Source of the DNA: Amoebidium appalachense
Lineage: Eukaryota > Protista > Ichthyosporea
NCBI GenBank assembly: GCA_963693365.1
Contig: CAVNZM010000013.1
Span: 2,319,817 to 2,383,816, forward strand
Length of the DNA stretch: 64,000 nt
Reading direction: 5' to 3'
Shown here one piece after another: positions 5,093 to 50,843 of this stretch (the first letter of the stretch is position 1; every line of letters begins with the position of its first letter). The notes beneath the pieces were generated by a model. It was not told the DNA's origin. It did not search any database and was given only the letters and a program-made list of their open reading frames with translations. A program made the translations under genes and the position numbers.

Positions 5093-5167
<75 letters not shown>

Positions 5168-6240: not shown

Positions 6241-6271
<31 letters not shown>

Positions 6272-6607
6272 GGTTGCCGAGCTCACAGTGAGTGCCGAGG
6301 CGCTTGAGAAGGAGCGAGACTTTTACTTCCACAAACTGCTGGAGGTAGAAACCATCTGCCAGGAGGATGGGGTCAGGGATATGGCTGCCGTCAAGAGGAT
6401 CCTGGACATCCTCTATGCCAACGACGTACGTGCTTGAAACATGCAGGCACAGCCACATGCATGCACGTGCAGCCAGATGCACACACATACGCACATGTGC
6501 ACAGCTACATGCACAAGGATGCACACATGTGCGCAGGCACAGGCGCACACGTGCAGGCAGATACACACGTACGCACACGTGTACAGCGACATGCACGTAG
6601 ATGTACA

Positions 6608-6653
<46 letters not shown>

Positions 6654-7437: not shown

Positions 7438-7507
<70 letters not shown>

Positions 7508-7620
7508 CACACACACACACACACACACAGGAGGGCGAGGGTGCCCCTGCTGCAGCCGAAGAGGTTGCAGCTGCTGCGCCGGTGGCCGATGCCTTGCTTG
7601 ATGATGACGAGACATACTAG
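171..7620 (+). CDS. MAPRE1: Microtubule plus-end binding protein EB1 (RP/EB family), 8 exons
   Basis: GT-AG exons with consistent phases: 171-294, 1942-1980, 2281-2387, 3947-4148, 4811-4863, 5193-5282, 6273-6425, 7531-7620. CH domain ([37 protein letters not shown]), Ala/Pro linker, EBH domain ([19 protein letters not shown]) and an acidic-aromatic tail DDDETY*. Confidence 0.96.
5372..5625 (+). repeat. ~50-bp minisatellite, 5 units, EB1 intron 6
   Basis: Unit CACACACATGGGCAGAGGCAACCCATGCACACAGGCACCAGGCACGCAGA with an internal CATGGG/CCCATG inverted repeat; the duplicate has 7 units (~24848-25200). Confidence 0.9.
6778..6960 (+). repeat. ~32-bp minisatellite, EB1 intron 7
   Basis: Tandem CAGCCACATACACAGGAATACACAAACATGCA-like units; absent from copy 2. 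Confidence 0.8.
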
Positions 7621-7639
7621 ATAGTCGGGGGTGGGATAG

Positions 7640-7700
7640 TTTGCGCAAATTCGATAATAGTTCTGTGGGTTTGCGCAAATTCGATGCGCAAATTCGATAA
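7640..7700. repeat. Three TGCGCAAATTCGAT units just after the EB1 stop codon
   Basis: Directly visible; also present in the duplicate at ~26223-26283. Confidence 0.7.
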
Positions 7701-8073
7701 TAATGTTTTTTTCTTTTGACTGGATTTATTCGGCGGAAAGATATGCAAGTATGCACGGCATACTGAGAAGACAACAAAAACTTCACGAGTTATCCAGTAA
7801 CAAGTGCATACTGAGATACCTGAACACTGTGTGAAATCATATAAATTCTCAATGTGACGACCAACAGAATTCAACAAAAAGTCTAAAGTGTTCACATTGC
7901 CAGCCAATAATAATGTTCTGTGGGGTGGCCTAGATATATCCCAGATATACCTGTTGATGTTGTAGGTTGGATTCCCACGGCTGGGGGCTGGCCCCCTAGA
8001 CGTACCGTGTGTCACGACATGTGATATGAATACACTGCTCTGTACATGTGTGCTTGCCTGATACCCCCCCCCG

Positions 8074-8108
<35 letters not shown>

Positions 8109-8354
8109 CTGAGTAGCAGTCTCACGCTCCAGGTTTCTGGCTCGACTGGTGTTTTCCTTCTTTTTTTTTCGCCCGCCTCTTGTCACAGTCTGTTTTAAAA
8201 GCAGCTGCCCGTGTATGTGACCATACACAGGGTCAGTTCCTTCAACTTGAGAGGGAGGGAGAGTTGCCCGTGTTACATGGAAAGAGCTCCTCGTATACGT
8301 ACTGAGCACTGTTGTGTGCATAATTCCCACATGCTGGCCCGTGTTAGATTAAAC

Positions 8355-10037: not shown

Positions 10038-10446
10038 GATTAAACACGTGGCTGGGCCCTGCTCTGCCCCTGCCATGTGATTTCGGTGTGAGAAACTTTC
10101 CATTTTGGGCTTATCGGAAAGCATCAGCAACCGCTGCGCGTGTTTTGATTGGCTGCCAGCCTGCGCTTGGCTCACTGTCCTGATCACTGCGATCTCAAGC
10201 GAAGCTCGAGGGGAAAAACAAAAAACAAAAGAAAGAAAGAAAACAACTAAAAACCTGAGAGGAAACAAGAGTAGTGGCAAGAGATAGTATAAATTTAAAG
10301 CTACGCTTTCGTGACAGTTCTGTATGGTTTGGCCATTTTTCTTTGGGCACGATCACACGCAATCCAGCGTCCTATGATCCCTTTTTGAACCGACAGGCAG
10401 ACGAGCCCTTTACTCTCTCCACGTGCAGTTCAGTGCATGCACCACC

Positions 10447-11361
10447 ATGGCCGCCCCACCCCCACCCACGCAGATGGCCCCCGTCATGCCGCCCTCCTAC
10501 CACTTCCCCCCTCCCCAGCACCAGAACCAGGGCTACCCACAAGGCTATCCCCAGCAGGTACCTTCCTTCCCCCCCTCCCCCTCCCCACTTGCTCTTTTCG
10601 GACTTCCACACACGCGCGCGCACACATGCCTGTTCTCACCCCTCAACCGCTAAGCCGCCACATCTACTGCGGCACCCGCTTCCTTTTCCCCAGGTGCCTC
10701 TTAGCACCAACTCATTTCCCTCTAAAGTTGGCTTGCACACTGCGATGTGCACTATCCCAACACAGAGTGAGTTGGGCATCATGGCTGTGGACCTCTTGTC
10801 GCTCTGCCTGTCAAGGTTTCAAACGAGCATGAAGACGTAGACACAGGGACGAAGTTGACAGCCAATAGCCTGAATCTACGTTTATGTGCCAAGTAGTTTC
10901 TTTCTGCTTGGATCTGTTTTCTTTCGTTTTCCTCTTCAGCCTGTGTCTTGAGAGCCGAGTCCACGCTTAGACAAGGGCAACATCAGTCCCCTGTCACCAT
11001 CTACTGACATTTACACCACACCTCGTCTGTTCTTCCCCCCTGAGTTTTTGTGCATTGGTCATTTTACGTCTCCCTTTGCCCTCCTACTGTTCTCCTCACG
11101 CTCTTTTCTCTTATTCTCCTGCCTTGGCTCCTTCTTCACCCCCCCCCCCCCCCCCCCCCCCCCCCCCGCCCGCGCCCCGTAAGCGTCCCTCCCACCCGCC
11201 CGAGCGCTTGAGGGTAGCTCTGGCCTCTCTCTCATTATAACCGACCTCGCCTCCTATTCCCTCTTTCCACCTCTCTAACACTCCCTCTGTACGGCCAGGG
11301 CTATGGAGGCACCGGCTATGGGGGGGTCTATCAGCAGCCATATGCATACCAACCCCTGCCG
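10447..11361 (+). pseudogene. Truncated duplicate of TMBIM/Lifeguard exons 1-2
   Basis: Exons 10447-10557 and 11299-11361 match 27460-27570 and 28314-28376 (two amino-acid differences in exon 1); no transmembrane exons follow before the duplication junction. Confidence 0.85.
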
Positions 11362-11732
11362 GTAGGTGTCCTGCGGGGGTGTATGTGTAGGGGGTGGGGG
11401 GGGTGGGGGGGGGGGGGGGGGGGGGGGGAGGAAAGGTCGTGTGAGAGGCTCAGGAGGCTGAGTTGCACGTGCATGAGTGCCTGTCTGCTTGTGCTTGTGG
11501 GGGTGGGGGTGGGGGTGTTTTGGGGCAGGGGGGAGGGGGGCTTTTTTCTTTGGCCCCGGTCGAGGCTTGTTGTTTTGCCCTCTAAAATATGTAGCTCGAG
11601 AGGTGTAAATGTAAGGCCTATGTGTTGCTCAGGGTTATGCTCACACTCAGTCGTTATGATAACACTCGTTGTGTTTAATGACGATATCCCAGAAATGGAC
11701 ATCCCATAAATGGCATAAACTATTCAGTGCGC

Positions 11733-23535: not shown

Positions 23536-28748
<5,213 letters not shown>

Positions 28749-29852: not shown

Positions 29853-31850
29853 CACACACACCACCCTACCCCTTTGCCTGTTGCCTGCATAAGTAACCCT
29901 GCTCGTCTCTGATCAAGACAGTTGACCCACCCACGTTCAAGTGACACAGTACCTGAGTTAGGTTTCGTTGACAGAGTGAATAGGTCGAAACTCGGGCACT
30001 GTGGATGACGTGGGCCCCTTCTGCCTATTATTAAGTCAGATGTTCTTTGTGCTGTGTTCGTCCCTTTTCTTACGGTCACAACCGCTTTGCATATGTTGTT
30101 GTGGGACGGTACAGGGGTGACCAAAAACTGTGTTTACTCCCTTTAAAATATCACCCAGTTTCTTTGCATGGTATTGTGGTATATTCTCGGTCACATAGTG
30201 TGGATGGTGTGCATGTTGTGAAAAGCTCATAGGAAATTGTGAGGAAATACCATCTAGCCAATAGGAAAATGCGAGATATGCTGAAAAGTACCATTCGAGT
30301 TTCGTGTATTTTTGCCTGAGGTATCGTGATGCAGCTCATGTTATCTCCTTCTGTGTGCAAGTTGAAGAGGCCAGAGTCTGGGTTTGTTTTAACTATTCGC
30401 ATTTTCCCTTGCATATCTGCGTGGTGTTTTCCATTCCGCTGTAGTTGTTCCATGTTTGGATACCCTCCCCCCCCCCCCCCCCCCCCCCCCCCCTCCCCCC
30501 TCCCTTCCCCCCCAAGCTCTCTTCCCGCAACCCACCGGATTGTTTCTTCTTATTTGGCCATCTATGCCGGTAATGAAATGGTGTCTATTTGGGGTCGGGG
30601 GGTTAGGAAGGGTTGGGAAGAAAGATGCTTGCTTCGGGGGAGGGGGGGGGGGGGGCAAAGGAAGCAGGCGCCAGGAACAAGTGTGGAGGGATCTGTGTTT
30701 TTTTTGTTTTTTTTGGTCTTGCTCAAGTGGTGTCTGCACAGGGTGTTCTGGACGGCCTGGGGGGTTGGCTTTGGCACCGTGCTGGCTCTGGCCTGCTGCC
30801 AGGACCTGAGCAGAAAGACACCCACTAACTACATCCTGCTGACCGTGTTTGTGAGTAAATGCACACATAAGCACGTGCACACACACACACATGTGCGTAC
30901 ACACATACGCACGTGCAAACACACATGTGCGTACACACATACGCACGTGCACATGTGCCTACACACATTGGCACGTGCACACACACACATGGGCACATGC
31001 TTGCACATACACGGACACACCTGCATGACACGTGCATGTGCTAACACACGTGTCTTCGTAGGCCCACATGCACCCATGCACACATGCCCGTGTGTACGTG
31101 AACATGCACGGGTACACGTGCAAGTGCTAATATTAGCACACACGTGGCATTCACGCACAGGATTGTAGATTTGAGATACACGTGATGGCAAGGGTGTGCC
31201 TGCATGCGTGCACATGCACAGGCACACAGACACATGTCCTTGTTGCTGTGAGGAGCCCTACATTTTTCGTGAGAGGCCACACGCAAACATCCCCCTTCCC
31301 CCCCCCCCCCCCCTTTTTTTTTTTTTGCTTAACTCTTGCAGCATTTGTGCCCCCCCCCCCCCCCTAATCCTCCCTTCAGAAAATACATTTAGCCCCCCCC
31401 CCCCAACCACTTCACTCTCATTCCTCTGAGAATGCTGGCATCCATGACTTCCTCCCTCCCCCCAACCATTTAACCCCTTTTCTCCCCCTTTATAAGCTGA
31501 CACTTATCCCCACAGACGATTGCTGAGTCGTTCATGGTCGGCACCGTTTGTACGTTCTACAACAGCCAGGAGGTAAAAGGAGTTGGGGGGTATGTGTTTG
31601 TGGGTGGTGTGGTTCACTCTGGATGGTGTTGATGGGATAAGTCTGGGTGCGGGTTGGGGGTGATAAGTGTGCACGTGCTTATACGTGTTGGATGCGGTTG
31701 GGGGAGTGTGCTTACAAAGATTGGCCTGTGTGTGTGCTTGTGGGGACCGCGTGTGCCGTGTGCCCACGTGATATTGCACGTGTGTGTGCATGCACGTGAT
31801 CCACGGGGAGTGTAAGGCGCAGGTGCGGGTGTTTCATGTCTTTTTTTTTT

Positions 31851-31881
<31 letters not shown>

Positions 31882-31955
31882 TTGATGGGCCGAATTGCTA
31901 ACACAATCCCCTCCTGACCTGACAAGGCACACACATACACACGCACATACACATG

Positions 31956-32003
<48 letters not shown>

Positions 32004-32771
32004 CACACACACACACACACACCTGCACACACACACACAATTACACCCCCCTCCCCCCCCCTCCCACACACACACACACGTACACACACAGGTGCTGATC
32101 GCACTAGGCATCACCTGCGTTGTGACGCTGTCTCTCAGCCTGTTTGCGTGCCAGACCAAGTATGACTTTACGGGCATGGCCGTGTATCTGTGGGCTGCAT
32201 GCTGGGTGCTGATGTCCTTCGGCATCCTCTCGCTGTTCTTCCACAACAGGGTAGGACATCTTTTCCCTCATATAAAACTGACTAAGAGGTGTACCTAAAA
32301 ACAGGGGGGGGAAACCAAAACCGTTATATCTCCACATATGATGTCTATCTGAACCGTTATATGTCCACTTAATATTTGTATGATGTAAGTGTAACATCGA
32401 GTTGTACTTGGATATGTTGTTTGGTGGTAGTGCTGTTGGCCTTGGTGCCGACAACTCATCACAGCTCACCTACATGTCGTTAATAACAGCACATCCCCCC
32501 CAAATATAATGTGCTGTGATCCAGGCTTTGGATGCTCTGTTTTGTTCTTTGTGCTGCAACCTAGGATATATCATTTAGCCCCCTTCACTCACCCTGCGCC
32601 TGTTTCGTTCCAAGCCCACGCTTCCCGAGACGTTTATACTAGCCCCTCCCCCCCCCCCCTGTCCCGGGGCTGCCGCTTTGCATTGTTCGTGCACGTGCCT
32701 GCCCTACAAACGTCGAGCTCCTTACAGAGTGCGGCCATGGACTGACCCTCTTCGTCTTCACAACACACACG

Positions 32772-32834
<63 letters not shown>

Positions 32835-33596
32835 GCGCGCGCGCAGATTGTTAACATGGTCTACTCTGCCTGTGGGGCGCTGCTCTTTGTGATGTATCTG
32901 ATCGTGGACACCCAGATGATTATGGGCGGCAAGGGCACGGAGATGTCTCCCGAGGAATACGTCTTTGTAATGCAGCCCCCCCCCCCCCCCCCCCCCCCCC
33001 CCCTTCCCCGTGAATGCTGGCTGGCCGCCAGGGGCTTACCCACTCGTTCGAACACGTTAAAGTTCCACCCGGTCAGGTGCACTGCCCCCCAATGGCATGG
33101 GTCAAACCTTATTGGTTTATTACGTGGGGTAAACCTCTAATAAAACAATAGTGGCCAGGTAAAGTTCCCCCTCTATTTCTCTCTGTCTCCATGTCCCCCC
33201 CTCCCCCCTTTTCCCCTCCCGCCCCTCTCCCCTCCCCCCCCCCCCCCCCCCTCCCCCCTCTGCACCCTCCCCCCCCCCCCCCCCCCCCCCCCCTCCCCTC
33301 CCTCCCCTTCTCCATAGATTAGGGAATCGGGGAGCTTTGTAGAAGCCCGGCTTATGCTCTACTTCTCTGTTTGTTTTCTTTGGTTTTTTCTACTTGCAGT
33401 TTTTGTAGACTCTGTTTTCTTAGATTGCTTCTCCTTGAACAACCCTGCTCGTCTTTGGCCAAGACGGGTGGACTCGCCTATTGCTGTTGAAACAAAGTAT
33501 GGGTTGGGAACCACACGCGAGAGGTTAAAGAGTCGAAACCCATGCTTTTGTGGAGGCATAGGAACCCCCCTGATGATGGGCTCTGTTCAAGTGTCT

Positions 33597-33702
33597 TCTG
33601 CCTGCACGCTTAAATTGTTTGATTTTGGATTTCCCACGTTTGTGACGTTTTGTTGTTGCTCTTTGTTGTCTCCTCCATATTTCCAACCCTCTAACGCATA
33701 CA

Positions 33703-33703
<1 letters not shown>
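33597..33703 (+). repeat. Dispersed ~107-bp intronic repeat, copy A
   Basis: Closely matches 54900-55006; both copies run into a poly-C tract. Confidence 0.85.
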
Positions 33704-33767
<64 letters not shown>

Positions 33768-34244
33768 ACACACACCACCACCACCACCCTCGCCCCCTCA
33801 CAACACACACACATACCTACCCCCCTCCTCCCCGCCTACATCCCTCCCTCCCCCCTCCCCCGCCTCTATATCCGCCTCAACCCCCCCTCCCCCCCCCCCA
33901 TTTACACAAACAAAAATTATCCCCCCCCCCCACCCACAACAACAACACATGCATGCATGAAGGGGGAAAGGGAAGAGGGGGGAGGGGGGGGGGGGGGAGA
34001 AGGGGGGAGGGGAGAGGGGGGAGTGGGGGGAATCTGTCCACACACGCCTGCACGAGCACCCCACACACCCGGGCAATGCTTGTAATTGCAACAGTGGCAC
34101 CCAACTTTTCCGCATTCTCTTTTCTTTCTTGGTCAGATGTACCATAAAGGATGGGTTAGAGGGGCAACAGGGCACTAGGGTTCCATTGTGGCTGCAACCG
34201 TCCAGCCGTCCAGTAAATGCTCTTGCACATGTTTGCACGTGTGC

Positions 34245-34301
<57 letters not shown>

Positions 34302-35031
34302 GTACACACACATACATACATGAAACGCGACGATGAAACATGGAGAGAGAGAGGGAGGGAGGGGGAGAGAGAGCGAGAGAGAAAGGGAGAGGAGTCGACG
34401 CACACACACATGCTGACTTTGTACTCTACAGGGCGCACTGACACTGTTTCTGGACATCATCAATCTGTTCCTTATGATCCTTCAGTTCATTGCAAATCTC
34501 AACAGGAACTAGAAAATGGTGGTGAAAGCGTAGGGGGTTAGTAGGGCTTTGAATTAGGTGTTTTTTGCATGTAAGTAGTGTATTAGGCACTGGCATGATC
34601 AGGTGGATATAGGCACTGATGTATGTGAGGGTAGAATGGTACTTCTCTATATAATTAGAGTAGGATGGATGGGTACGGGGTTAAATTTGGATACCAGATA
34701 TCCGCAATGTGTTGCTTGGAATGATCAGGGTAAAGATGTGTGCATATGGTTTAGGATTAGGTGGGCACAGCTGTAAGAATATGTATGGAGTTTTCGTCTG
34801 AGTCACAATAGACCAGCAATGTGTGGTTATTAATATTGACAGTTATACATAAACTAAACGATAAAAAAGATGGAATATACGTGTTAAAAATTGCTGTGTC
34901 GAAGGTCAAGTTATAATTTTTGGAGCTAACAGGTGTTTCACGTTTTCACGTGTGAATCTGATGGCTAAGACTGCCACTGAAACTACCGCAACAGTTACTG
35001 TGTTAATCCCTTAAACTAGCTTGTTATTCAG

Positions 35032-36725: not shown

Positions 36726-37710
36726 CTACTCGTCATGAAGCAACTCCACGCTGGTGCCCACAGTGGCAGGCATCACAGCCACCCTATACTGCTGGCCAGT
36801 AGAAACAGTGAATGCCGTGCCATGGTCAGCCCCGTCGACTGCAAAAGACACCTTCCCGTCGCCGTGCAGGCGAATGCAAACCGTCGCACCAATGGGCAAT
36901 GCACTGCCGAGGTACGTAAAATCAGTACCCCATGGACCACTGTCTTGACTATACAGGAATCCGTCGGTTGTGTACAGGTACCAGCCACACGTGGTGTATG
37001 GGACAGTCCCAGCTGCAGTAAGTATTGATGGTGAGGGAGCAGGTCCAATCATCGTATCGTTGCCATCTATACTATGGCTGAGGTGCACGTGTACGTGATG
37101 CGAACCTCCGAGCAACTTGTGAGGGTGGAGGGCCAAGCCAACTCAGGGCCTACAACCGTGGTGAAGGAGCCGTCATCGGTGGTTTTGGTGGCTGTGCGAC
37201 AGTCATCTGAGAGGGTGAAGGACGGGTGGGCCAGGAATCTGAGCTCTCCGTTGATGCCAACGTTCAAGTTGTCCTTGGGGTCTAGTTCTTCCATCAGCCC
37301 CTCCAAACGATAAAACTCTGCCTCGGTGTTAAGAAGCTTCTTTTCCATCGGTGTGAGTAGGTCAACAGGTATTTCTTGCCCCCCCAGATGGTCCGCAACA
37401 TAGTGAAACACCACCGGGCTCCTGTTGATGAAAAATGCGCCGTTCTTGTCATTTTTTGCATCCCACCGGCCAGAAAACTTGGCGGGAAAGTAGGAGCCCG
37501 GTTTGCTGGTCAAGTCATTGAGGGTGAGGGCGAAATGGGTGCCCCCAACGTTGAAGGTGATGGGGTCTTGCAGGTTGCTGGTGTCGAGTTTATGCACCAT
37601 GTTGGCTCACTGCGCCTTTTCCTCCTCCAGCGCACGTTTTTCTTGTGCAAAGTTGGCCAAAGTGTCTCGAAGTAGGCTGTGGCAGTTTTCAGTTCGTCGT
37701 TGAGTGCCAT
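36726..37710 (-). pseudogene. Intronless KCTD-type BTB/POZ protein with a C-terminal SPRY/NHR-like beta domain, disrupted
   Basis: ATG at 37710 (MALNDELK); frameshift near 37660; in-frame TGA in EEEKAQ*ANMVHKL; BTB motifs ITFNVGGTHF, FFINRSPVVFHYVADHL and EAEFYRL; second frameshift at ~37070-37136 before MIGPAP..GWYLY..VSFAVDG. Confidence 0.8.
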
Positions 37711-38078: not shown

Positions 38079-38172
38079 GGGGTTTAACCACTTTTTATTG
38101 CGTGAGGCCCAGCCACATTCGACGGCCTACTGCGTTTTCCCGCACAGCCGATCAAATGCAGCCAGTGACATA
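38079..38172 (-). repeat. Dispersed ~95-110-bp module, homologous to 27099-27209
   Basis: The reverse complement TATGTCACTGGCTGCATTTGATCGGCTGTGC..GGCCGTCGAATGTGGCTGGGCCTC..GCAATAAAAAGTG matches 27101-27208. Confidence 0.85.
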
Positions 38173-39229
38173 CGTACATGCTAGGCAACAATGAGCGCCA
38201 TCGTAGTATCTGACACCCCAATTACATATTATGGTAGCTCCGAAAGAAAGTTAAGGCACCGGATCACAATATCATACTGTGCAGCATTAATAACTTAGAT
38301 CTAGGATAGTCATCTTAAAACGGATATATTGAGGAAGAGAGGAAGAAAAGAGGGCCCGGGTACCATATCAGGAGCGGGCAATTTTTGAATTCTCCCTCCC
38401 CGGCCCCGCCGGGGAAAATTTGAGGTTTTTGGACCTCAAAGAAGTCAAATCCTGCAAAATCCACTACCGGGAGGCCAAAAAGGGTGATTTTACAAAAAAG
38501 GAGGGACATACATGAAAAAGAGAAAATGGGCGAGTTCAGTGGGCTGCCGATAAGTATATTTCGTGCTGGGCCGGTATACATGCTGCCGTGGTTGTTGCTG
38601 TAGACGGCAGTATGGCATCGCATGTGTCACGTGACCTGCACGTGAATGCGACCATGTGCAGGCACTGAGTCTAGGGGGATTTGTATGTGTGTTTTGGAGC
38701 ACCGACAAGGCAGAGCCAGGGTGAGGGATGTGTAAACATGGAGTTTAGGGAGATCGTGCTGCTATTGTAACATGTGCACAAAACAGCCACGTGCACCGGC
38801 ACACTCCGGTGTACAGAACAATAATATGCACATGCGTCACTGTAATATCATGTATGCGCATGCCGCACAAGGTTTAGGAGACCACCACAGTATATACTAT
38901 TTTCTTTTGGTTGATATCCATGTAGGAATGGTGTGTTGCAGTTGTCATGATCAGCCTGAGGCAGGCACGTGCACTCACTGAATCACTAGAACTCATGAAT
39001 AAAAAATACATTCGCTAAAAACGGCAAGGTAAATTTGGGGCCAAGCTATTATTTCCCCCTTTTAAACGTTTTTTTAGCTCCAAGAACTTCGACGCCAAAA
39101 TTTCTATATTTGGCCATCGTATATGATAATGAACACGTGTACTTAAATTAAAGTAGTTATATAAATATGAGCGGCCCGTTACAAATACAGTGACGAAAAA
39201 CAGTGACCCACGAGCAGTTTTTCTTTCTA

Positions 39230-39308
<79 letters not shown>

Positions 39309-40623
39309 AGACACACACACCACCACCACGGTGACCACCACCACCACCACCACCACCACTCACCCCTTAAAAAAACCACACACATACGTGCACGTGTACA
39401 CACACACACAGAACACCACCACCACCTCCACTGGACCCCATTTCCTCGTTGTTTTCTTAAGCCTTCAGACCAGTCCTGCACACTGGAGTTAAACAATTGA
39501 ATTCACCTAGGCTGACATGCATCCACCCCCGCCTTCCACTTCCCTCCCCCCACCCCCACCCCCCCACCCCCCACCCCCACCCCCTCCCCCTCGATGAAGA
39601 AGGGCCCCCGTAAGCCTTGGGGGGGGGGGGAGGGGGGGGGAAGGGGGGAAGGGGGAGCTCTTGAGCCTCCGGGTAGGGAAGTGGGGTCCGGGGATCCGGA
39701 GAGGGAGGGGGGGGGGGGGGGGGGGGGGAAGGGGGCATATAATATTGGGCCTAGATATCATAGTATGGGGCCCCGGGGGAGGGAGAGGTGGGGGGGGGAG
39801 GGGGGAGGATCCACGGGAAAGACCTTTAGGTGCATGTTCTTATTTATACCCCCTTCGAATCATCCCCCCTCTCCCCCCCCCCCCTCCCCCCCCTGAGTGC
39901 AGGCCGTGACGTAGCTACGATAACCCTGCAGAAGGCAACAAAAATGTATTAATTACTAGCACTATACATGTGTTCATAGTGCAGCTTGCACCACGTATGA
40001 TCTCAGCAACTTTAAAGTAGTCACAAAGTTTAGTTATTTTCATTATTTTCATTGCTCTGAACTCTATTACTCTGAAATGATCACCGTGCATGTGCCGCAA
40101 GATAACAACCCTATATGTGTGCAGCTGCTGCCTGCAGGTTAGACTCGCTGAAAAGACAATTGTCAGTGTGCATCCGACGCTTGCAGCTGCAGCTAGCCTC
40201 TGCAACATTAATACTTGCCAAGTGAATGCTCTTACACTTGATCATCATTCACTCAAAAAACCGAGGACCGACAGATTAAATATTAATGTCGATCCGAATG
40301 ATCAGCAAGTGTCTATGCGTACTACTATATATACACACACGTAAAATGCGAAGCTATCAGTTACAAGGCACACCTGCTGCACTGGCACACATACACATAC
40401 ACACCGGCAGATCGATGCTGTCAAAATTTACTTTCATGTACTTCGTAGGTCCGACACAGGTGCACATGAACACGTACATATGTACAAGCCGCGCACACAC
40501 CACACCACACATACACACACACACACACACACTCACACACACACACGCACACACGCACACACGCACACACGCACACACGCACGCACGCACGCACACACAC
40601 ACACACACGCACGCACGCGCGCG

Positions 40624-40729
<106 letters not shown>

Positions 40730-41054
40730 GACACACACACACACACACACATCACTGGGTGCGCTCGCTGGGGATTAGTTTTTTGGCACGCTGTTGACTT
40801 TATCGTGTGTTTATTATTTGCTATTTATTGGCCAGCGGCCAACATTTAAAAATATACTATATACCTAAAAATAGATACTGACTACGGCCAGCAGACATTA
40901 TACACCTTCCAGGACACATTAACACCAATAGTCTAACACACCATACTCTCGATCACAAAGAATTCCTAACAAACAGAGAAAAGTGCAAAGGCTCTGTACT
41001 ATTACTCAGATTCTAAATTTTAATTCTTTACAGTAAACTTCGGAATGAAAGCTA

Positions 41055-41087
<33 letters not shown>

Positions 41088-41174
41088 CCCCCTAACATGA
41101 CTGTACGAAGAACAGGTATAACTTGAAGCACTACAACACATATGAGATCCGTTACATTGGTGTACATTCCAATA

Positions 41175-42824
41175 TTAGACACTAGTTTGGCTACTCTGAC
41201 TACTCTGAGATCCTGATTGGCTGCCTGCAGACTTGCGGCCACGATTACTTTGCTTTCGATCGTGCCATTGCAGCTGCGTCTCTCCAGCAGGTGGCAACGC
41301 CAGGCCCAGCACAGCAGATGCACGAGAAGGGGGTGGGAACTGCCCACCAGCCGAGGGCTGGCCCACATGGCCCAAGTAAGGATGGGGACCGTGCTGCGGC
41401 AGTAGCCCAGGCATGGGGAAGGCAGGGCCGGGCTGAGGCGGCATGATGCCCCACGGTGGGGGCCAGCCATGTGGGTGGTGCGGGCCTGGATGGGGTGCAG
41501 GGGGCATGTGCGGCACATGGCCCTGCTGCATGTCAAGCGCGGGTGCTGGTGGCATGGCATCCTGATTGGCTGCAACCCAACGTGGGCAGCTCTTGGCCCG
41601 ATTGGAGCCGAGGCAGCCCTTGCCCTGGCGGCCACACGTCTTGCAGGTCTTGGGGGCTCTCTGGGGTGGCTGCATAGGAGGGGGCACCGGCAAATCCATC
41701 TGCAGGGGCCCCTCAGGGCCAATGTTGCGATGCTTTTTGCCCACTAGCATGGGCAAGGGCCGCTCACGCTGCGCCCCTGCATCGACACCGTCTGGAACAG
41801 GGAGGGGTGGCAAGGGGGCAGGCCGTATGGTTGCTGGCACAGCGTCTGCCCTCTCCTCGCGCATACGCTTGCGGTGATCTGCCAGGCCCTCGTGTGTGGA
41901 GCGCTGTGCATGTGCCGTCTGCCAGGTCTTCCACTTGTCGAAATGCTTCTTGATGTAGGCCGCATCCTTCATGTAGATTCCCCCAGCCACAGAGGCAGCC
42001 TTGTTGAAGTCTTGGGCCAAAGCCTCGAACAGCTGGCCGTTGGGCTTTGCATGTGCCTTGTAGGTGCCCAGGAGCAGCGTGCTGAATAGCTTGCGCTCCT
42101 GAGGGGTAAGCACCGGAAGGAAGGGGATGGCCACATGTTGCTTCTGCGCCAGGAACTTGTAGTCGCCCCTCAGTGCAGGGTCCGGCTGTGGTGCACCACG
42201 CGCCACCTGGTTGCCCCCCCCCATGGCAGCACCGTCACCCTCCTCGACCTCACAGTCCTCTGGCCCGCCCATCACGCCATTGGCTGCAGGCTCGATGTTA
42301 TCAGACGGAGGTGGGGGTGCGGGCACCGCAACTGGCTCCTGCGCCGGGGCATTGGCCACACAGGAGAGCGGGGCAAAGTTGAAGTACTCCTCCGGTAGCT
42401 TGTAGCAGCCTACGGGTACCCACTGGGGGTCGAGGTGATGGCCGTACAGCATCAGCGCCAGTGCCTCCATGTCGTCAACAATCCAGGGGCTGTAGTGGGG
42501 GGGCCCCGATGCCTGGCCCAGGCGGTTGCGGTAGTGTGCACGCAGGTTGTGGCGGTGGCGCCTATTGGACATGGTGGCGTCCAGCAGGCGCAGCGACATG
42601 CGTGTGGCCCCAAAGTGGGTGGCCAGGGGGTTGTGCACTGCCCCCTCCACCTCGTTGGTGCCCCGGATGCAGCGGTAGCGCATGAGCCCATCTGCGTCGG
42701 CAGTGGTCTCGTAGTAGAGGGGCAGGCCGGGGGGGGTCCGACAGACAGCCATTTTGGGCGTGTTCGAGCAGCGACTGTGGGGGCACAAGCAAACATCAGA
42801 GAGATGGGTGGGTGGTGGTGGTGG

Positions 42825-42894
<70 letters not shown>

Positions 42895-42966
42895 TGGGGT
42901 TGCTAAGGAAAAAAACGAGCAGGGAAAGGCAAAAAACAACTGGCTAGGCAGCAAGGGCCGTGCGGG

Positions 42967-43030
<64 letters not shown>

Positions 43031-43034
43031 ATGT

Positions 43035-43065
<31 letters not shown>

Positions 43066-43610
43066 AGGGCTAGGGTGTGCGTGTGTGTGCAGATGAACCA
43101 AGGATGACAAATAAGCGAAGAATCTTTTCTGTGGTGGTGGAGTTGTTGGGCGCCTGCAGGGGGGGGGGGGGGGGGGGGGGGGGGGGATGTTGCCTCGAGT
43201 CTTTCAAAGCCATCCTTCTTGAACAGAGGCTTGCCATCCGGTCCGGGCGGCACATCCTTGTAGGTGTTTTTGAACTCCACCAGCCGCGAGACCAGCGTGT
43301 ATGGGTCGGGAATAACCCGCCGGATGCGCTCCATGAAGTAGCTCAGGTCGCCGCCCTTGAGCTCGGTTTCAATGTCGATGCCCTTCTGCTCCAGCACCCC
43401 CTGTGAGGCAGGATGCCAATATTAATTTACTACGCACACTGCAATTTGGGTTTGGTAGACTTTGATACCTGCCGTTATTGTAGGACCCCTCCCCTCCACC
43501 CCCCCCATCTTCTCCCCCAACACAAGTAAAAAATGCATGTGGCTCTTTCCCCCCACAACCCTACATTATTTCTCTCTAGGCATATGAATAACCCCCACTC
43601 TCCTCCCCCC

Positions 43611-43643
<33 letters not shown>

Positions 43644-44679
43644 TTCCCCCCCCTCTCTCTGAGGCTCAGGCTCTCTCTCTTCCCTCAGAAGTTTTGTCGA
43701 AGGTGTGCATGGTTGTGGGTGGAATGGTGAGTGTGTGCTAACGAGTGTATGTGTGTGTGCGCGTCAGTCACGCATGTTGTTGTTGCCGTTTTTTTTATTT
43801 TTATTTTTTATTTTTTATTTTGGGGGGGGGGGGGAGGGGGGGGCACCTTCACATGTCCGTAATCCTCTTCATTCCACACAAATATTGCCTCGCTGAGTGC
43901 GCGTGCGTACTCAGCCCTGCGGGGGTGTGACTTGTACGTGCCGTCCGCCGTGTTTGCAATGGAGTGGAAGGCGTCATTCAGCACAGTCTGCCACACCACC
44001 TCCCCAGGCGGTGCCTGGCCCAACATGCCCTCTCTGGGAGCTGCCTCGGGTCCCCCTGGGGCTGCCTCAAGGCCCCCCGGGGCTGCCTGGGGGTCCTGGG
44101 GGGGTGCCTGTGGGCCGGCAAGGGGTTGCTGCTGCTCGGCAGGGGGAGGGGCTGGGTCAGGGACCACCGGCACCTCGGCACCTGGGTCCGGTGGGGGCTG
44201 AATGGGCCGTAGCCACTGCAGGTGCACCATCAGCTCAAAGGGCGGCGGGCCCAGCTCTCCCAGGGTCTTGCCCTTGTCGGGGCCAAAGGGCACCTGCATG
44301 GCCGGCGACAGCACCTGATCCACCCGCACCACTGCATGCTTCTTGCCCACCTTCATGCCCCCCCAGCGCTCCGGCTGCACAGCCAGCACCACCCCGGTGG
44401 CTGCTGCAGCATGTGGGCCCCGCCGGGGCACAATCTCAACCCCTTCACCGAGTGCCTTTGCATGAAGCCGCGCTGCATGTCATAGAGGGAAGCAAAAAAC
44501 TCAGCCAAAAAGCCACAGCACCAACGTTTTTCTCTTCGCTCCACAAAAATCAAATGCATATTCCTTAGCAACCCCCTTCCCCCCCCCCCCCCCCCCCCCC
44601 CCCCCCCTTCTCCCTCCCCCCCCCCCCCTCTCCCAGTGCCCAGCTTGTGTGGCACTTGCACGTGTTAACAGTGCTATAG

Positions 44680-44714
<35 letters not shown>

Positions 44715-44805
44715 ACCACCACCACCACCACCAATCACCCCCTCCTTTGATAGCCACCCGACACCCAGCATAACACAACTGGAACACTGGCCCATGTGGT
44801 CAGCC

Positions 44806-44840
<35 letters not shown>

Positions 44841-46342
44841 CCCCTCCCCCCCCTCCCCTCTCCTCTGGGGGGCCCAAAATCTTTCTATATCTGGCATAAG
44901 CACATAAGCACTGGGGCAAAAAGCAGGTGGGATACACACCTGACAGGTTTGGCCTATCGACCACGGCCGAGTAGACCTGCAGGGACGCATATGCATCAAG
45001 GGCAGCGTAGGTGGCCTGCACCTCTGATAGCGGCTCGTGCCAGTTGGAGCATCGAACAAGTGCCGGCTTGGGCAGCTTCTTGCCTATGACCTGGGCAGTG
45101 ATGTCGGCCAAGCCCCGGGCCGCAGAGGTGATAGCTGCACGGGCATAGCAGAACCGGCCCAGCTCCAGATAGCTGGCCACAGGGGTGCCGTAGTCCTTGT
45201 TGAGGTGGGCCGAGTCCGTGCCGATCTGCTTGCCCACCTTGATGATGCTGGGGTCCCTAAGCAGCGCAATCAGCTCGTCCACCAGCCGCGCGGGCGGGCT
45301 GTGGTTGGGGCCCATGCGTGCCAAGTGGAAGATGTACACGGCCCGTGCGGTGGCAATCTGCAGCGTGCAAACCTTGGACCGCGCCTGGCCCACCCGATAG
45401 ACCCACTCGCAGTCCAGCCCCACCACGCGGTGCTGCTGCCCCTCCAGGTCGGCACGAATGGCCGCTGTAGCCACCACCGCCCCCTGGCAGTCGGTGTACA
45501 CCGGCTTAGGGTAGTTGGCCGGCAGCTCCAGCCCAGGCAGACCGTCCGTCACGCTTACCAGCGCAGCCTCGTTCAGACGGACGGGGCATTTTGGCCGGGC
45601 TAGGGTTGGAAACATGCGCTCAACAAACGCCCGGTCTTGGCAGCACCGATCTGTGTAGAAGAAGGCCGGGCCCTTGCTGTTGAGCGCCGCCGTGGTGGCA
45701 GAGATGCGCTGGATCACGGGCTCAATCTCCTGGTGGCTGCAGTCCCGTGTAAATACCTGCGCCCGGATCTCTGGGGTGCCGCACTGTGTGAGAGGGCATC
45801 TCCGAGCAGCCATGCATGTTCTAGCTTCCCTTACCACATGGCCCTTCACGAGACTTCAGTGCCCACACAATCCTTTCCCCCTCCCTCCCCCCAAACCCAT
45901 GTGCCCACATACTTTCCCCTCCCTCTCCCCCAAAACCCTTCCCCCTCCTTCCCCCCAAACCCATGTGCCCACATACTTTCCCCAGGCCTCCCTTTCCCCC
46001 AAAATCTTCCCCCCCCCCTCCCCCCTAAACCCATGTACCTACAATCCTTCCCCCTTCCTCCCCCTAAACCCTTGTGATCACAATCCTTTCCCCCTCTCTG
46101 CCTTCCCCCCAAACCCATGTGCCCACGATCCTTCCCCACTCCCCCTCCCCCCAAACCATGGGACAGCCCTCCATATGGCACCTACTGTCCCCCCCCCCCC
46201 CCCCCCCCCCCCACCCCACCCCGGGCCTCTTGCCCTCTCTACCTTCAACCCCGACGGTGGTGTCTCTCCCCCCCCCCCCCCCCCCCCCCCCTGCATCCCT
46301 TGCAATCACTGGCCCCTACTCCCATTCTGCTTGGCAGAAGCT

Positions 46343-46421
<79 letters not shown>

Positions 46422-46654
46422 ATTCCCCGCCAAAAGAAAGCTCCACCCCAGCCCACCCCAATCTCTACCCAGCAAAAACACATACACACATATCTGGAGC
46501 TTCCTAGTTTTTGCTCGACAGGGCAAGAATTGTCCCCAAAACCCACATACTACAAACCTCTACTCACAGTGTGCCACCTCATTAAATGTGGAGCCTAAGA
46601 GATTTAAAGGCCCTAGAGGGGGAGGGGGGGAGGGGGGGAGGGGGGGGCGTGTGT

Positions 46655-46685
<31 letters not shown>

Positions 46686-47118
46686 GGTGGGCGTGTGTGG
46701 GGGGGGGGGGGAGGGGGGAAGGGGGCCTGGGGGAGAGTGGGGGGAGGGGGGAGAAGAGGAGGGACCACACACCGCCAAGCTCGTTTACACAAGTCCATAG
46801 GCCTCGGTACAGAGGCTCCCCATTGATGCCGGTGAGCTTCCCAATTTGGAAGGTGTGGTCGGCCTTGAGCACGTTGTTTACGGGCTTGAGCTGCGTGTCC
46901 AGGCTCTGGTACTTTGCCGTGCGGTCGCTGAACTCAGTATACACGGCACTCAGGTATTTGCCTGAACCCCAAGTACTGTTAGAACTCCACCACCCTCCCA
47001 TCAGGACCATCCCCCCCATTCCCTCTAGTCCCTCGTGTTCATCTCACCTCTCTGTATTTTCGTAAGTCTGTATGGCTTTTCCCATCTCAAAAACGCTACA
47101 CACCCATCTCCGGCCGTT

Positions 47119-47159
<41 letters not shown>

Positions 47160-47343
47160 CCCCGCCTCCCGGCGCGCGCAAACCCTCCAAGTCATTGCAC
47201 CAACTTTCACCTTCTTTCCCCTTTGTGCCCCATCTGCAGTTTGTCCCCTGCACGTCCGTTTGCCCTTCCCCCCACACCCTCCTGCCACTACTATAATAAC
47301 CATTAAGTACCGCCACCAAGATCCAGTCTACCACCATGTGCCC

Positions 47344-47382
<39 letters not shown>

Positions 47383-47531
47383 CTCTCCACCTCCTTTCCC
47401 CCAACACACACAGACACACATGCGCACACCCACCATCTAATTTCAGGCATAACAGTTCTCCACGATTTCCCAAGCACACTCACTGGTACATGGACCGTTA
47501 TGCTTTCACCCCTCTGATGATCCCTCTGCCC

Positions 47532-47563
<32 letters not shown>

Positions 47564-47634
47564 ACCACCACCACCACCACCACCACCATGACTGATTGCC
47601 ACCACCACCACCTAATCCATCACCATGTCCCCCC

Positions 47635-47683
<49 letters not shown>

Positions 47684-49077
47684 ACACGGACCCACAAGTA
47701 CACGCACACTCACAGGCGCACATCCACCACCACACATCCACCACCACCATAATAGAAACTTATTGACCACACTTCCAAAACCCATTTCCAAGTCCCCCCC
47801 CCCCCCTAAAAAAAAAAATAAAAAATAATAAAACAAAACCCTACCAAGCCAACCCAAAAAATGCCCAAGCACGTGCATACAAAACAATGGGGACCATTTA
47901 CACACCCAAAATGCAGTGCACACTTGCCTGAAGGCACATGTCCAGCGTAACCATTTTTGTCACCAAACGCCGAGAACTTAGCCGCCTGCTCCTCTGGGGG
48001 AAGTTCTGTCAGGCGCTGGTCGTGGGGGCGGAAATCGTTACGCTTTTTGAGTTCATACTTGGTCCAATGCAGCGCCCTCGAGTAATACAGGAGCCGCTGC
48101 TCGTCGTATCGCTGCTTGTGGAGCTCCGAGAGGAGGGTGGCAAAGGCGTTTGGGCCCACACCTTTGTCTGCCAGTGCACGCAACAATGTTACCACCTTTA
48201 GGTCGAGCCCACTGCGGTGGCTAAGGTAGGCCGGAAACTGATCACGCATGAAGAGTGGAAGGCGTTTAATTGTCTGGGGGTTTGTGCCGGCAAAGTTTTT
48301 TTTGCATGTGTCACAAAAGTACCGGGCCGTGATAATGTAGTAGCAGCTGTCAAAGTCGATAACACGCCGTCCTACGGGGTTGCTCATGAACCCATTGCGA
48401 GAAGTACGGTGTGGGTTGGGGTGGTTGTGGGGGTCCACGTAGTGATCATCGAAGGGGCACGGCACCATGAAACCGGGAGACAACCTTTCCGGAAGCCAGG
48501 CAAAACATCTGGGTTTGTAGAAAGGCGCTGGATCGCCCCCAAATTTAAAGCCTATAATGGGAGGTGGAAGATGCCACCCCACAGGCGTCTTCTCATCTTT
48601 GAGACTCTCTTTCACTGTGTGCAGGTGCGACTTGATTGTTTCGCCCGCCGCGTCAGAAAACTCCTCTCCACCGTCATCCCCGTCCGTATTATCTTCTCCC
48701 TCTTCCTCCCCTTCATCCTCGTCTACCCGGTACGCATCTGCTGCTGCATTTAGCAAAGGTTCCTCGTCGGGTTGCACCTGTATGTCTGGTGGGTGTGGAG
48801 CAGGGGCCCGATCCATTTCTCTTGGTAACGAATGGACGCTACCTGCCTCAACTACACGGGCCCTTATGTCGGCGGCCTTAGATAGAGGGGGCTGTTCGGG
48901 TTGTACGTTTACGTTTAGTTCCTGCAAAACAGCTTTGTTTGCCGTCCCAAAACCTGCAAAGTTCGCTAAAGGCTGAACAAATGCAGCATCTTTTTTTTTG
49001 CGCCCAGCTCCCTCCCTAGCTCCGCCTGTTTTATGCCCAGGGCGCTGTGTTGTGCCCTTAGGGCAGCCTGGCTTCAT
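41175..49077 (-). mobile_element. Dada-like (MuDR/hAT/P-related) DDE transposase with an inserted DEDDy 3'-5' exonuclease, 6 exons
   Basis: Exons 49077-47928, 46961-46773, 45770-44940, 44472-43847, 43400-43194, 42774-41175. N-terminal Cys motif (VPCP..RYFCDTC), D in VLKADHTF, D in FYTDRCC, exonuclease (VVGLDCEW, QIAT, KVG..D, YAALDA), DxxH (NDAFH), E in RGTNEVEG, and a C-terminal CKTC..C..C finger. One +1 frameshift in an 8-G run at 42729-42736. Confidence 0.85.
45865..46165. repeat. ~60-bp degenerate minisatellite in transposase intron 2
   Basis: About 5 copies of CCCAAACCCATGTGCCCACA... Confidence 0.7.
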
Positions 49078-49422
49078 TTTAAACACTTGGGGCCTGGCCC
49101 CCTGCCCCCCTAGTGCGACTACGTTACCGCAAACATTCCCGTATTCCAGTGTGCTCGGCAATGCTGCTCATGGCCTTCCCGGACTGGTGGTTGTGACCAG
49201 TAAAGAGCGCGCCAATTCCTGACCGCCGCCTACAGCAGTGTATGATCTGTTATCCATATTCGGCAAAAGGGGTCTTGCCCAACCAATGGCTTGAATCCTT
49301 GTAACTTTGCTTTATCCATATAAGGTTAGCTGAACACCCCCCCCTCCAATCATACCCCCCCCTTCTCTCTAGTAGTAGCTCCTGGCATGCCGCACCCCCC
49401 GAAAAGAGAATAAAACCGCCAA

Positions 49423-49807
49423 TAATCAGGAGTCATGGGGCGAGTGGCCGAGCGAGACCGAAGTTATTTCGGCGAGCCGTCGGTTATTTTGGCGAGCCGA
49501 TAGGCGAGCCAAAATAATCGTCAAGGCGAGCCGAAATAACGAGGTCGAGCGAGGACACGAGCCGACATGATCCGGTTACGATATGACCCATAAAGATTTA
49601 GCATTCACTTTATTGATACATTATGCAAACTTTAACTCGGTTATTTGATTCATACATCATTACATTCACATTTCAGGCTCATTTTCCTAGTGATCGCTTT
49701 GATTGGCTAGCAGCGCACTCACCCATTAACCCGGTTATTCGATTCCTCTAACCCAATAGAAATGTCCATAGCCTGGTTATTTCGGTGAGTGCGCTCTAGG
49801 CCAATCA
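49423..49807 (+). other. Structured non-coding element: G.A-mismatch hairpin plus a second inverted repeat
   Basis: Hairpin 49433-49570 with apex GCC-GATA-GGC; IR 49700-49723 / 49784-49807; recurring GTTATT motif. Confidence 0.75.
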
Positions 49808-50843
49808 CGGCAAGACTAACTGAAGTTAAAGGTCGTGTCGTCATCCAATCAGATCACACCCCGACGCTCGGAATATCGTAACCTCCGGTTCTAATACATT
49901 AGCTAACAGGTTGCATTTATTGATAGATATGCAGCCGCGAGTAAACCGCCCCCCACACATATTACACATACGAGCAGGAGACACCAGAAACCGATTACAC
50001 CGCCAAGCCATAATCATCTTTGCGTTTTTACACCACACCACATTACGAATAAACGAATCTATGTATGAACGAGACTCTCTAACCGTATCCGCCATATAGG
50101 CTACTAGTAGTTGGTGTTTTTGCGGTCCTAACACCGGAAGGGACTCAACACGTAGAGTAAAAAGATACATATGCAAACATATGTATGTACGCGTACACCT
50201 GCAGCAATATCACTTTAGAAAACTTTTGAGTTGCAACCGTTGGTGCTCAACGGGTGTTGCCCGCACTGCCCGGCCGGCGCGCCCGGCCTGTGACTCAAAC
50301 TTTGATCAGGGTCCAGGGATGAGACGGTGACACCACGTCACACCAGCCCTGAAGTCTAATGCTGTGATTGGCTAAATTCCGCGAATGCAGCTCCGAACGT
50401 CACGAGACGATAAAAGTCAGTTGAAAGGGACCCCTAAGCTTTTTAATCGAGCAGCCTGCAGTTTATTAATTCTTCATATCTAGAATTTTTCCATTTCATC
50501 AGGGATTTGGGTAACCCATTCTCAACTCTGTAGTCATCTAATAGCCAAAGTAGGTTTTACTATTGATTATTAACTTTCATTCGAACATTCTTATTTTGAT
50601 TAGCTTCAAGTCACGCGTCAGCAATATTATTTTCCGAAAACCCTTATTTGGCAAGTGTGTGCCCGCTGGTGCCATTCCATCCAATCAAAAAACATCCCTC
50701 TGGGAAAACCAGTGCTCTGTTGCTGCTTTCCTCGTCAGACCCTCTCTGCCCACCAGCCTCCAAGGAAGCTTTCACAAAACAGACAAAACACACACACACA
50801 CACACTGCAGAGCCCCTTCTAATTCTTGGTTCATCTAGCCACC

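What the first reader, a model, noticed from the sequence alone, without database searches (positions are those of the whole stretch)
41175..49077. Near-intact intron-containing Dada-like transposase with a built-in 3'-5' exonuclease and no visible small-RNA target
Seen: six phase-compatible exons join into one long protein with D (ADHTF), D (YTDRCC), a complete DEDDy exonuclease, DxxH, E (RGTNEVEG) and two Cys fingers. Known: this order, with the exonuclease between the second D and DxxH, is what I recall for some Dada transposons (Kojima and Jurka 2013), many of which insert site-specifically into U6, U1 or tRNA genes. Inference: I see no split tRNA or snRNA at either flank, and the 3' side lies ~400 bp from a long (CA)n tract ending at 40750. 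This family may have a different, possibly microsatellite, target. The exonuclease's role in transposition is not established to my knowledge.
Basis: partly seen in the sequence, partly recalled or inferred. Interest (0 to 1): 0.8.

Follow-up and report, generated by a model that had tools for sequence, protein, structure and literature searches.

The report
Untargeted exonuclease-armed Dada-like transposon
An 11-kb jumping gene in a single-celled relative of animals carries a cut-and-paste enzyme with a built-in trimming nuclease, leaves an 8-base footprint at this site and likely lands in ordinary DNA rather than in the small-RNA genes its known relatives aim at, which would widen the definition of that transposon group.

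Summary
The protein is real; the target idea is wrong. A transcript-derived protein labelled Amoebidium parasiticum (1,533 aa) confirms all five splice junctions. The motif order is D418, D487, a complete WRN-type DEDDy exonuclease, D890xxH893, E1044. This copy has one extra base in a G8 run (42729-42736), which shifts the frame before the catalytic E.

Public contigs define the element as 38353-49400 (11,048 bp). It has an 8-bp duplication (GAAAAGAG), no terminal inverted repeats and a 7-bp in-register subterminal repeat. It sits in another high-copy repeat whose uninterrupted form is seen in five runs. The (CA)n tract lies inside the element. Depth ratios suggest roughly 60-170 near-identical copies; the nine or so other flanks seen differ from this site's and none is a microsatellite.

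Exonuclease-bearing Dada elements are published (2013), but I found no published ends or duplication for them. This family misses two published Dada criteria (6-7-bp duplication, small-RNA target), so I call it a Dada-like variant. The closest solved transposase is ISCth4 (IS256 type, also 8 bp). The nuclease's job, likely end-trimming, is untested.

The parts
38353..49400 (-). Whole Dada-like DNA transposon, 11,048 bp; ends GG...CC, no terminal inverted repeat
   Evidence: Contigs of other copies leave the window sequence at 38351-38353 and after 49400 (run X17); direct repeat on both sides; the uninterrupted site is assembled in X1, X4, X18, X19 and X20.
38345..38352 (+). Left copy of the 8-bp target-site duplication GAAAAGAG
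   Evidence: (one of only two 8-mers shared by the two 100-bp junction regions)
49401..49408 (+). Right copy of the 8-bp target-site duplication
38369..38375 (+). Subterminal inverted repeat CAGGAGC, positions 17-23 from the left end
   Evidence: 16 of 30 positions match in register 0, at most 11 at shifts of 1-3; shuffle p 0.002 for a run of 7
49378..49384 (-). Partner subterminal repeat, positions 17-23 from the right end
47928..49077 (-). Exon 1 (ATG; DUF6729 region at about 48052-48618 with Cys finger residues); GC splice donor
   Evidence: a contig of run X17 joins this exon to exon 2
46773..46961 (-). Exon 2, first catalytic D418 (codon 46858-46860)
44940..45770 (-). Exon 3, second catalytic D487 (45649-45651) and the WRN-type DEDDy 3'-5' exonuclease (about 44965-45444)
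43847..44472 (-). Exon 4, small beta-rich domain, Pro/Ala linker and D890xxH893 (43964-43975)
43194..43400 (-). Exon 5 (helical insertion domain); GC splice donor
41175..42774 (-). Exon 6, catalytic E1044 (42645-42647), C-terminal four-Cys finger, low-complexity tail and stop
42729..42736 (.). G8 run that frameshifts this copy ahead of the catalytic E (assembly error or copy-specific mutation; not resolved)
   Evidence: transcript proteins read through in frame
38353..41174 (-). 2.8-kb 3-prime non-coding part of the element, containing the (CA)n tract (about 40500-40750)
   Evidence: no convincing ORF by eye
38191..38352 (.). Left half of the unrelated high-copy repeat that received the insertion (outer limit approximate)
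   Evidence: X20 record 19 has 154 letters before 49401, of which the 30 printed match up to 38344
49401..50167 (.). Right half of the host repeat (49401-49422 and 49879-50167), itself interrupted by a 456-bp insertion at 49423-49878
   Evidence: (joint 49422 to 49879 in X1, X4, X20; loose ends at 50164-50167)

Best explanation
This is an 11-kb, transcribed, multicopy DNA transposon whose exonuclease-bearing Dada-type transposase likely cuts it out and pastes it into largely unselected sites with an 8-base staggered cut, while the fused 3'-5' exonuclease likely trims DNA ends during the reaction. Shown: ends, the 8-bp duplication at this site, the empty site, different flanks in other copies, spliced transcripts and intact catalytic residues in the transcribed form. 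Inferred: the transposase would recognise the GG ends and the subterminal CAGGAGC boxes in place of terminal inverted repeats, through its Cys-finger regions. The RNase H core (D418, D487, E1044, with DxxH) would release the 3'-OH ends and join them to target strands 8 nt apart, and gap repair would make the duplication. Least certain step (about 40%): the exonuclease, inserted in the catalytic core right after the second D, would chew leftover flanking nucleotides back to the protein-protected end, as the DEDDh domain does in the CRISPR trimmer-integrase. The copy in this window is either mis-assembled by one base or a dead copy that sister copies could still mobilise.
For: Ends and duplication. 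Left end at 38353: 3 contigs (2 in X1, 1 in X19) break there with no G at -1, so neither AG nor G belongs to the element and the duplication here is 8 bp. Copy number and youth: a 432-nt exon-1 contig with 0 differences has depth 1,964 against 24.6 for the unique right flank in X1; single-contig ratios are 80 and 172 in X1, 61 and 75 in X4. Dispersal: main-family left junctions in 6 contigs of X1, 2 of X19 and 1 of X18 (the 2 of X4 repeat an X1 row), plus 1 right junction in X17; the printed flanks differ from one another and from this site. Expression: 18 transcript-derived proteins in the cluster, 15 listed. Catalysis: D487, D890, H893 and E1044 are invariant and D418 nearly so in 19 aligned proteins. 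All five exonuclease residues are kept in 100 of the 110 relatives that span the region, of 117 aligned. A fish protein without the exonuclease aligns to the profile (probability 99.7%, E 2.4e-26) with the exonuclease as one clean gap between the second D and DxxH. The AF2 model (pLDDT 73.9) matches WRN exonuclease (Z 27.5, rmsd 1.8, 184 aligned). Its only transposase match in the 50 rows shown is ISCth4 (Z 14.1, rmsd 3.6, 247 aligned), which also makes 8-bp duplications (PMC7780238).
Against: Both sides of the duplication are seen at one locus only. About nine other flanks were seen out of an estimated 60-170 copies, only 30 letters of each; several rows are mixtures of two contigs and 48 and 130 loose-end rows were not shown, so a preferred target for many copies is not excluded. 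Every left junction printed has G or C at -1, so some sequence preference is possible. By eye, two clean flanks carry A-box-like words near, but not in register with, the junction. The tool warns that contig depth is not a copy number. The empty site seen is the consensus of a repeat family, not the orthologous empty allele, so current mobility is not shown. The 100-of-110 figure is biased, because the query contained the exonuclease. No experiment bears on the exonuclease step, and a 3'-5' enzyme cannot remove the 5' flaps that an IS256-type route would leave (my inference).
Confidence: 0.75

Rival explanations
1. A conventional target-specific Dada: most copies sit in one multicopy RNA gene or repeat, the true duplication is 6 bp followed by a terminal AG, and the flanks seen are off-target events.
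For: At this locus a 6-bp duplication plus AG fits the sequence equally well. Kojima reports targets 'followed by AG' and could not rule out 8 bp. Dada-tV_OL has one of five copies in a non-autonomous hAT element. Most flanks were not seen.
Against: Only 2 of the 9 other left junctions share AG at -2/-1, and 3 lack even the G. The subterminal repeats are in register only with the 38353 end. None of 9 published Dada target words occurs at either junction. No tRNA at the rejoined site. No shared flank among those printed.
Confidence: 0.12
2. Same element, different route: like IS256/ISCth4 it moves by copy-out/paste-in through a joined-end circle, and the exonuclease processes the donor or junction intermediate.
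For: The closest solved transposase is ISCth4, which uses this route and makes 8-bp duplications. Fish Dada elements carry flank hexamers from site to site. The copy number is high.
Against: No end-to-end joint could be tested, because the two ends were laid in separate calls. Eukaryotic DxxH-clade enzymes such as hAT and Mutator cut and paste (recalled). Fold similarity does not fix the pathway.
Confidence: 0.25
3. Microsatellite-targeting family.
For: A long (CA)n tract lies 425 bp from the stop codon.
Against: The tract is inside the element; the ends are 920 and 1,388 bp from the nearest tract; 54% of the window is as close to a tract; no printed flank is a microsatellite.
Confidence: 0.02
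4. Not Dada-like: a KDZ/Zisupton-type element (8-bp duplication, large) or a domesticated single-copy gene.
For: Zisupton makes 8-bp duplications (PMC12730594). Two relatives carry Ulp1 or OTU protease domains, a feature recalled for KDZ elements.
Against: No terminal inverted repeat; Pfam lists only DUF6729 and the exonuclease for P0012; DxxH and domain order match Dada; many copies with different flanks exclude domestication.
Confidence: 0.04

Closest known systems
Exonuclease-bearing Dada elements Dada-1_LB, Dada-2_LB (Laccaria bicolor) and Dada-1_ES / Dada-1_Ec32 (Ectocarpus); PMC3706591, PMC12477816
   Same: DEDDy exonuclease between the second D and DxxH, with introns; the exonuclease motifs resemble those of Fig. 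S1 by eye. Close database relatives come from agarics, Mucoromycota, a chytrid, an aphelid and a diatom.
   Different: Those families have no stated target in the 2013 paper, and the 2025 curation still lists Dada-1_Ec32 as incomplete, with TSD '?' and 15 copies. Here both ends, an 8-bp duplication, varied flanks and a high copy number are visible, in an ichthyosporean.
Target-specific animal and Perkinsus Dada (Dada-U6, -U1, -tRNA, -5S); PMC3706591, PMC8869645
   Same: DDE plus DxxH; D-to-D spacing 69 versus 68 in Dada-U6_DR; no terminal inverted repeats but short subterminal repeats at equal distance; ends beginning GG and finishing CC, as in Dada-tV; size at the upper limit (11,048 versus 4,666-10,979 bp).
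   Different: Exonuclease present; 8-bp rather than 6-7-bp duplication; no small-RNA gene at the site; subterminal motif not found in the target; C-terminal finger has four Cys rather than CCHC.
IS256-family ISCth4 transposase (PDB 6xg8; PMC7780238)
   Same: Closest solved transposase fold (Z 14.1, rmsd 3.6, 247 aligned); 8-bp duplication; non-specific flanks.
   Different: Bacterial, about 400 aa, has terminal inverted repeats, no exonuclease; its copy-out/paste-in route is untested here.
Nuclease-equipped integrases: KolobokD (PMC9587614) and the Cas1-Cas2/DEDDh trimmer-integrase (PMC10284694)
   Same: A 3'-5' DEDD exonuclease travels with an integrase; in the CRISPR case it trims the substrate for integration.
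   Different: DEDDh rather than WRN-type DEDDy; different integrases; the trimming role is only an analogy here.

Membership tests
Dada superfamily | DDE triad with DxxH after the second D | tested here: met
   D418, D487, D890xxH893, E1044; RNase H-like order of strands and helices in the model
Dada superfamily | Sequence homology to curated Dada transposases | tested here: inconclusive
   Repbase and Dataset S1 (.fa) could not be read. Indirect only: an unlabelled actinopterygian protein aligns at 99.7% probability; motifs resemble Fig. S1 and Dada-5S by eye.
Dada superfamily | 6-7-bp target-site duplication | tested here: not met
   8 bp at this locus, with the end fixed by 3 contigs lacking G at -1 and by repeat register; one locus only
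Dada superfamily | Insertion at a fixed site in snRNA, tRNA or 5S genes | tested here: not met
   Site is an unrelated repeat; no tRNA, no such Rfam family listed, no known target word; other flanks differ. Most copies were not seen.
Dada superfamily | No terminal inverted repeats; short subterminal inverted repeats at equal distance from the ends | tested here: met
Dada superfamily | N-terminal CCCC finger | tested here: inconclusive
   C207 and C255 conserved, C258 variable, fourth ligand unclear
Dada superfamily | C-terminal CCHC finger | tested here: not met
   C-x2-C-x6-C-x8-C: Cys in place of His, same x8 spacing to the last ligand; a similar four-ligand pattern in 11 of 18 relatives by regex
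Exonuclease-bearing Dada branch (Dada-1_LB, -2_LB, -1_ES) | Complete DEDDy exonuclease between the second D and DxxH | tested here: met
KDZ / Zisupton | 8-bp duplication | tested here: met
   definition
KDZ / Zisupton | Terminal inverted repeats | tested here: not met
KDZ / Zisupton | KDZ transposase / CxC Pfam domains (families recalled) | tested here: not met
   P0012 hits only DUF6729 and DNA_pol_A_exo1 at E up to 0.01
IS256 / Mutator clade | Joined-end circular intermediate (IS256) | not testable with these tools
   ends laid separately; both laying calls used

The most novel reading that the evidence does not exclude
The exonuclease-bearing branch, spread over fungi, algae and ichthyosporeans, is an untargeted, 8-bp-duplicating form of Dada in which a WRN-type nuclease built into the catalytic core polishes the ends of a transposon that lacks terminal inverted repeats: a eukaryotic trimmer-transposase. 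Small-RNA targeting would then be a derived trait of nuclease-less lineages, and the published 6-bp duplications may be 8-bp ones misread because all targets share the next two bases.
Probability: 0.3. Interest if true: 0.7.

Novelty: new variant of a known kind. Interest (0 to 1): 0.45.

Why it matters
Dada is defined by small-RNA targeting and a 6-7-bp duplication that is hard to measure, because every target looks the same. A young, high-copy, expressed family with varied flanks lets the cut geometry be read directly. It supplies ends for the exonuclease-bearing branch, which the papers I found left undefined, and it gives an intact transposase sequence plus substrate ends for testing what a fused WRN-type exonuclease does in transposition, a role that has only been guessed since 2013. 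The protein architecture itself is not new.

Tried and rejected
No whole genome is held, so copies could not be aligned genome-wide. An exact search for the left terminus in metagenome contigs found 0. The search for related loci found no confirmed relative in metagenome contigs (P0036) or viral contigs (P0012), so flanks of relatives were not examined. The Rfam scan gave only sub-threshold matches, nearly all hairpin-type hits on G/C runs. The repeat finder was swamped by simple repeats. Foldseek listed only exonucleases. No run is on record as RNA; X17 and X19 are guessed RNA, and expression rests on the EukProt proteins and the spliced X17 contig. The frameshift could not be checked in reads, because both laying calls went to the termini. 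A single-sequence fold of the fish protein P0185 was submitted but never finished. Rejected: microsatellite target, domesticated gene, a rescuing alternative acceptor for exon 6, and a second gene in the 3-prime region (no convincing ORF; micro-exons not excluded). No tree was built, so 'ancestral' and 'derived' are untested. Literature searches found no paper giving ends or a duplication for exonuclease-bearing Dada. 'Dada' does not occur in the main text of the Amoebidium genome paper (its supplements were not searched). Repbase entries and Repbase Reports could not be searched and may already hold such families.
Full report
Gene. The minus strand carries six exons (49077-47928, 46961-46773, 45770-44940, 44472-43847, 43400-43194, 42774-41175), with GC donors in introns 1 and 5. 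Their sum is 4,603 nt, one more than a multiple of three. The break lies in a G8 run at 42729-42736, and the joined reading stops at codon 1072 without reading the catalytic E in frame; no other AG acceptor in 42700-42900 avoids it. A search with exon 6 found a 100% identical transcript-derived protein. Its cluster has 18 members, and the 15 listed are all labelled Amoebidium parasiticum in EukProt. Member P0012 (1,533 aa) matches my model at every junction and differs only at residue 1389 and at the break, where it reads through in frame. The host is an Amoebidium or a very close relative (inference from this identity).

Protein. Pfam finds DUF6729 and a 3'-5' exonuclease. In 19 aligned proteins D487, D890, H893 and E1044 are invariant and D418 nearly so. 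phmmer found 3,819 representatives at E up to 0.001 and 220 at 1e-30, 150 listed; the weaker hits may include unrelated exonucleases. Named close relatives are from agarics, Mucoromycota, a chytrid, an aphelid and a diatom. All five exonuclease residues are kept in 100 of the 110 relatives spanning the region, of 117 aligned; the query selects for this domain. A stickleback protein with DUF6729 and no exonuclease aligns to the profile at 99.7% probability, with the exonuclease as one gap between the second D and DxxH. The AF2 model of P0001 (pLDDT 73.9) matches WRN exonuclease at Z 27.5; the only transposase among the 50 rows shown is ISCth4 (Z 14.1, rmsd 3.6, 247 aligned).

Element. Twenty of the 23 listed public runs hold the stretch 47880-50750. 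Laid on it, a contig of X17 leaves the window after 49400, and a contig of X20 runs from 49401 leftward into letters that match the window up to 38344. Laid on 38315-38800, contigs of X1, X4, X18 and X19 continue from 38352 directly into the sequence that follows 49408. The element is therefore 38353-49400 (11,048 bp), between two copies of GAAAAGAG. At this site alone a 6-bp duplication plus a terminal AG, or 7 bp plus G, would also fit. Three contigs of other copies break at 38353 without G at -1, and the ends align best in this register (16 of 30 positions; CAGGAGC at 17-23 on both ends; shuffle p 0.002). There is no terminal inverted repeat. Single-contig depth ratios against unique flanks give 61-172, a rough figure, since the tool warns that depth is not copy number. 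A 432-nt exon-1 contig without differences at depth 1,964 points to a recent burst. I did not lay 38800-47880.

Target. The site is a high-copy repeat that also received a 456-bp insertion at 49423-49878. No tRNA was found in the window or at the rejoined site, no tRNA, U1/U6 snRNA or rRNA family is among the Rfam rows listed, and none of nine published target words lies at the junctions. Nine other left junctions (6 in X1, 2 in X19, 1 in X18 whose flank is not printed; the 2 in X4 repeat an X1 row) and one right junction (X17) were seen. The printed flanks differ and none is a microsatellite. Against over-reading: that is a small share of the copies, only 30 letters each, some rows are mixtures, many rows were hidden, all left junctions printed have G or C at -1, and two flanks show A-box-like words out of register (by eye). 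The (CA)n tract is inside the element, and 54% of the window lies within 425 bp of such a tract.

Mechanism. Most likely cut-and-paste by a DxxH-clade DDE enzyme with an 8-nt staggered target cut and weak target choice (about 0.75). The exonuclease is conserved as an enzyme; I infer that it trims 3-prime ends, probably surplus flank, during transposition (about 0.4). Kojima and Jurka made a similar untested guess, and the CRISPR trimmer-integrase is the proven analogue. An IS256-type copy-out route is the main mechanistic rival (0.25).

Comparison. Kojima and Jurka 2013 describe the same domain order in Laccaria and Ectocarpus, and state that all Dada elements with definable termini sit in small-RNA genes with 6-7-bp duplications. 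The 2025 Ectocarpus curation lists its family as incomplete with TSD '?'. This element works like a Dada and belongs with that exonuclease-bearing branch by architecture. It fails the published duplication-length and target criteria, and direct homology to Repbase entries was not testable, so I file it as Dada-like, a new variant. Notes by other agents in this scan report similar 8-bp or dispersed Dada-like elements in other genomes. They are unchecked, came after my reading was recorded, and are not evidence.

What I read. PMC3706591: text parts 1-3 of 4 and supplements S1 and S2; its Dataset S1 was unreadable. PMC8869645: parts 1 and 3 of 5, passages, and supplement parts 1 and 107 of 109. 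PMC12477816: passages and a supplement search. PMC11244446, PMC5751038, PMC9587614, PMC7780238 and PMC12730594: passages only. PMC10284694: abstract and outline.

Verdict. A real, young, expressed transposon family. The architecture is known; the ends, the 8-bp duplication and the apparent lack of small-RNA targeting are what I could not find in print. Interest 0.45.

Noticed in passing
window 8355-10037: A 1,683-bp element with perfect inverted ends (36 of 36 bases checked) starting CAAGG and an 8-bp duplication (8347-8354 and 10038-10045). The paralogous segment near 26940 is the empty site. It holds a 301-aa open frame without a Pfam hit and looks like a deleted P-superfamily element (recalled).
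   Followed up: partly
window 4161-11732 and 23674-28748: Local duplication of several kb at 81-99% identity, each copy with its own small insertions; it includes the 3-prime exons of an EB1-like gene (name recalled, by eye).
   Followed up: no
window 49423-49878: A 456-bp insertion (TAA repeated at the joint, no terminal inverted repeat, internal palindromic repeats near 49440-49570), with about 30-fold depth in X1. Its class is unknown.
   Followed up: partly
window 27099-27209 and 38079-38172: A related ~110-bp element (81% identity, inverted) inserted in one copy of the duplicated segment and also present just left of the host repeat.
   Followed up: no
window 38353-38410: A sister subfamily has a different first 7 bases (also starting GG) and a 3-bp insertion after 38407, at depth 399 against 1,582 in X19. 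Depth is higher near this end than further in, which suggests non-autonomous derivatives.
   Followed up: no
window 43395 to 42283: At least six listed transcript proteins jump from the start of exon 5 into exon 6 out of frame and stop, losing the catalytic E. The junction is not a standard splice, so it is probably a transcribed internal-deletion copy that might act as a repressor. Other isoforms read into intron 1.
   Followed up: partly
proteins P0035, P0041: Relatives fused to OTU (three repeated units in a chytrid protein) or Ulp1 protease domains.
   Followed up: no
window 37067-37606 (-), about 30740-34513 (+), from 50844 (+): Neighbouring host genes: a BTB/POZ protein, a Bax-inhibitor-1-like membrane protein and an enoyl-CoA isomerase-like gene (the last two named by eye from recall).
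   Followed up: no
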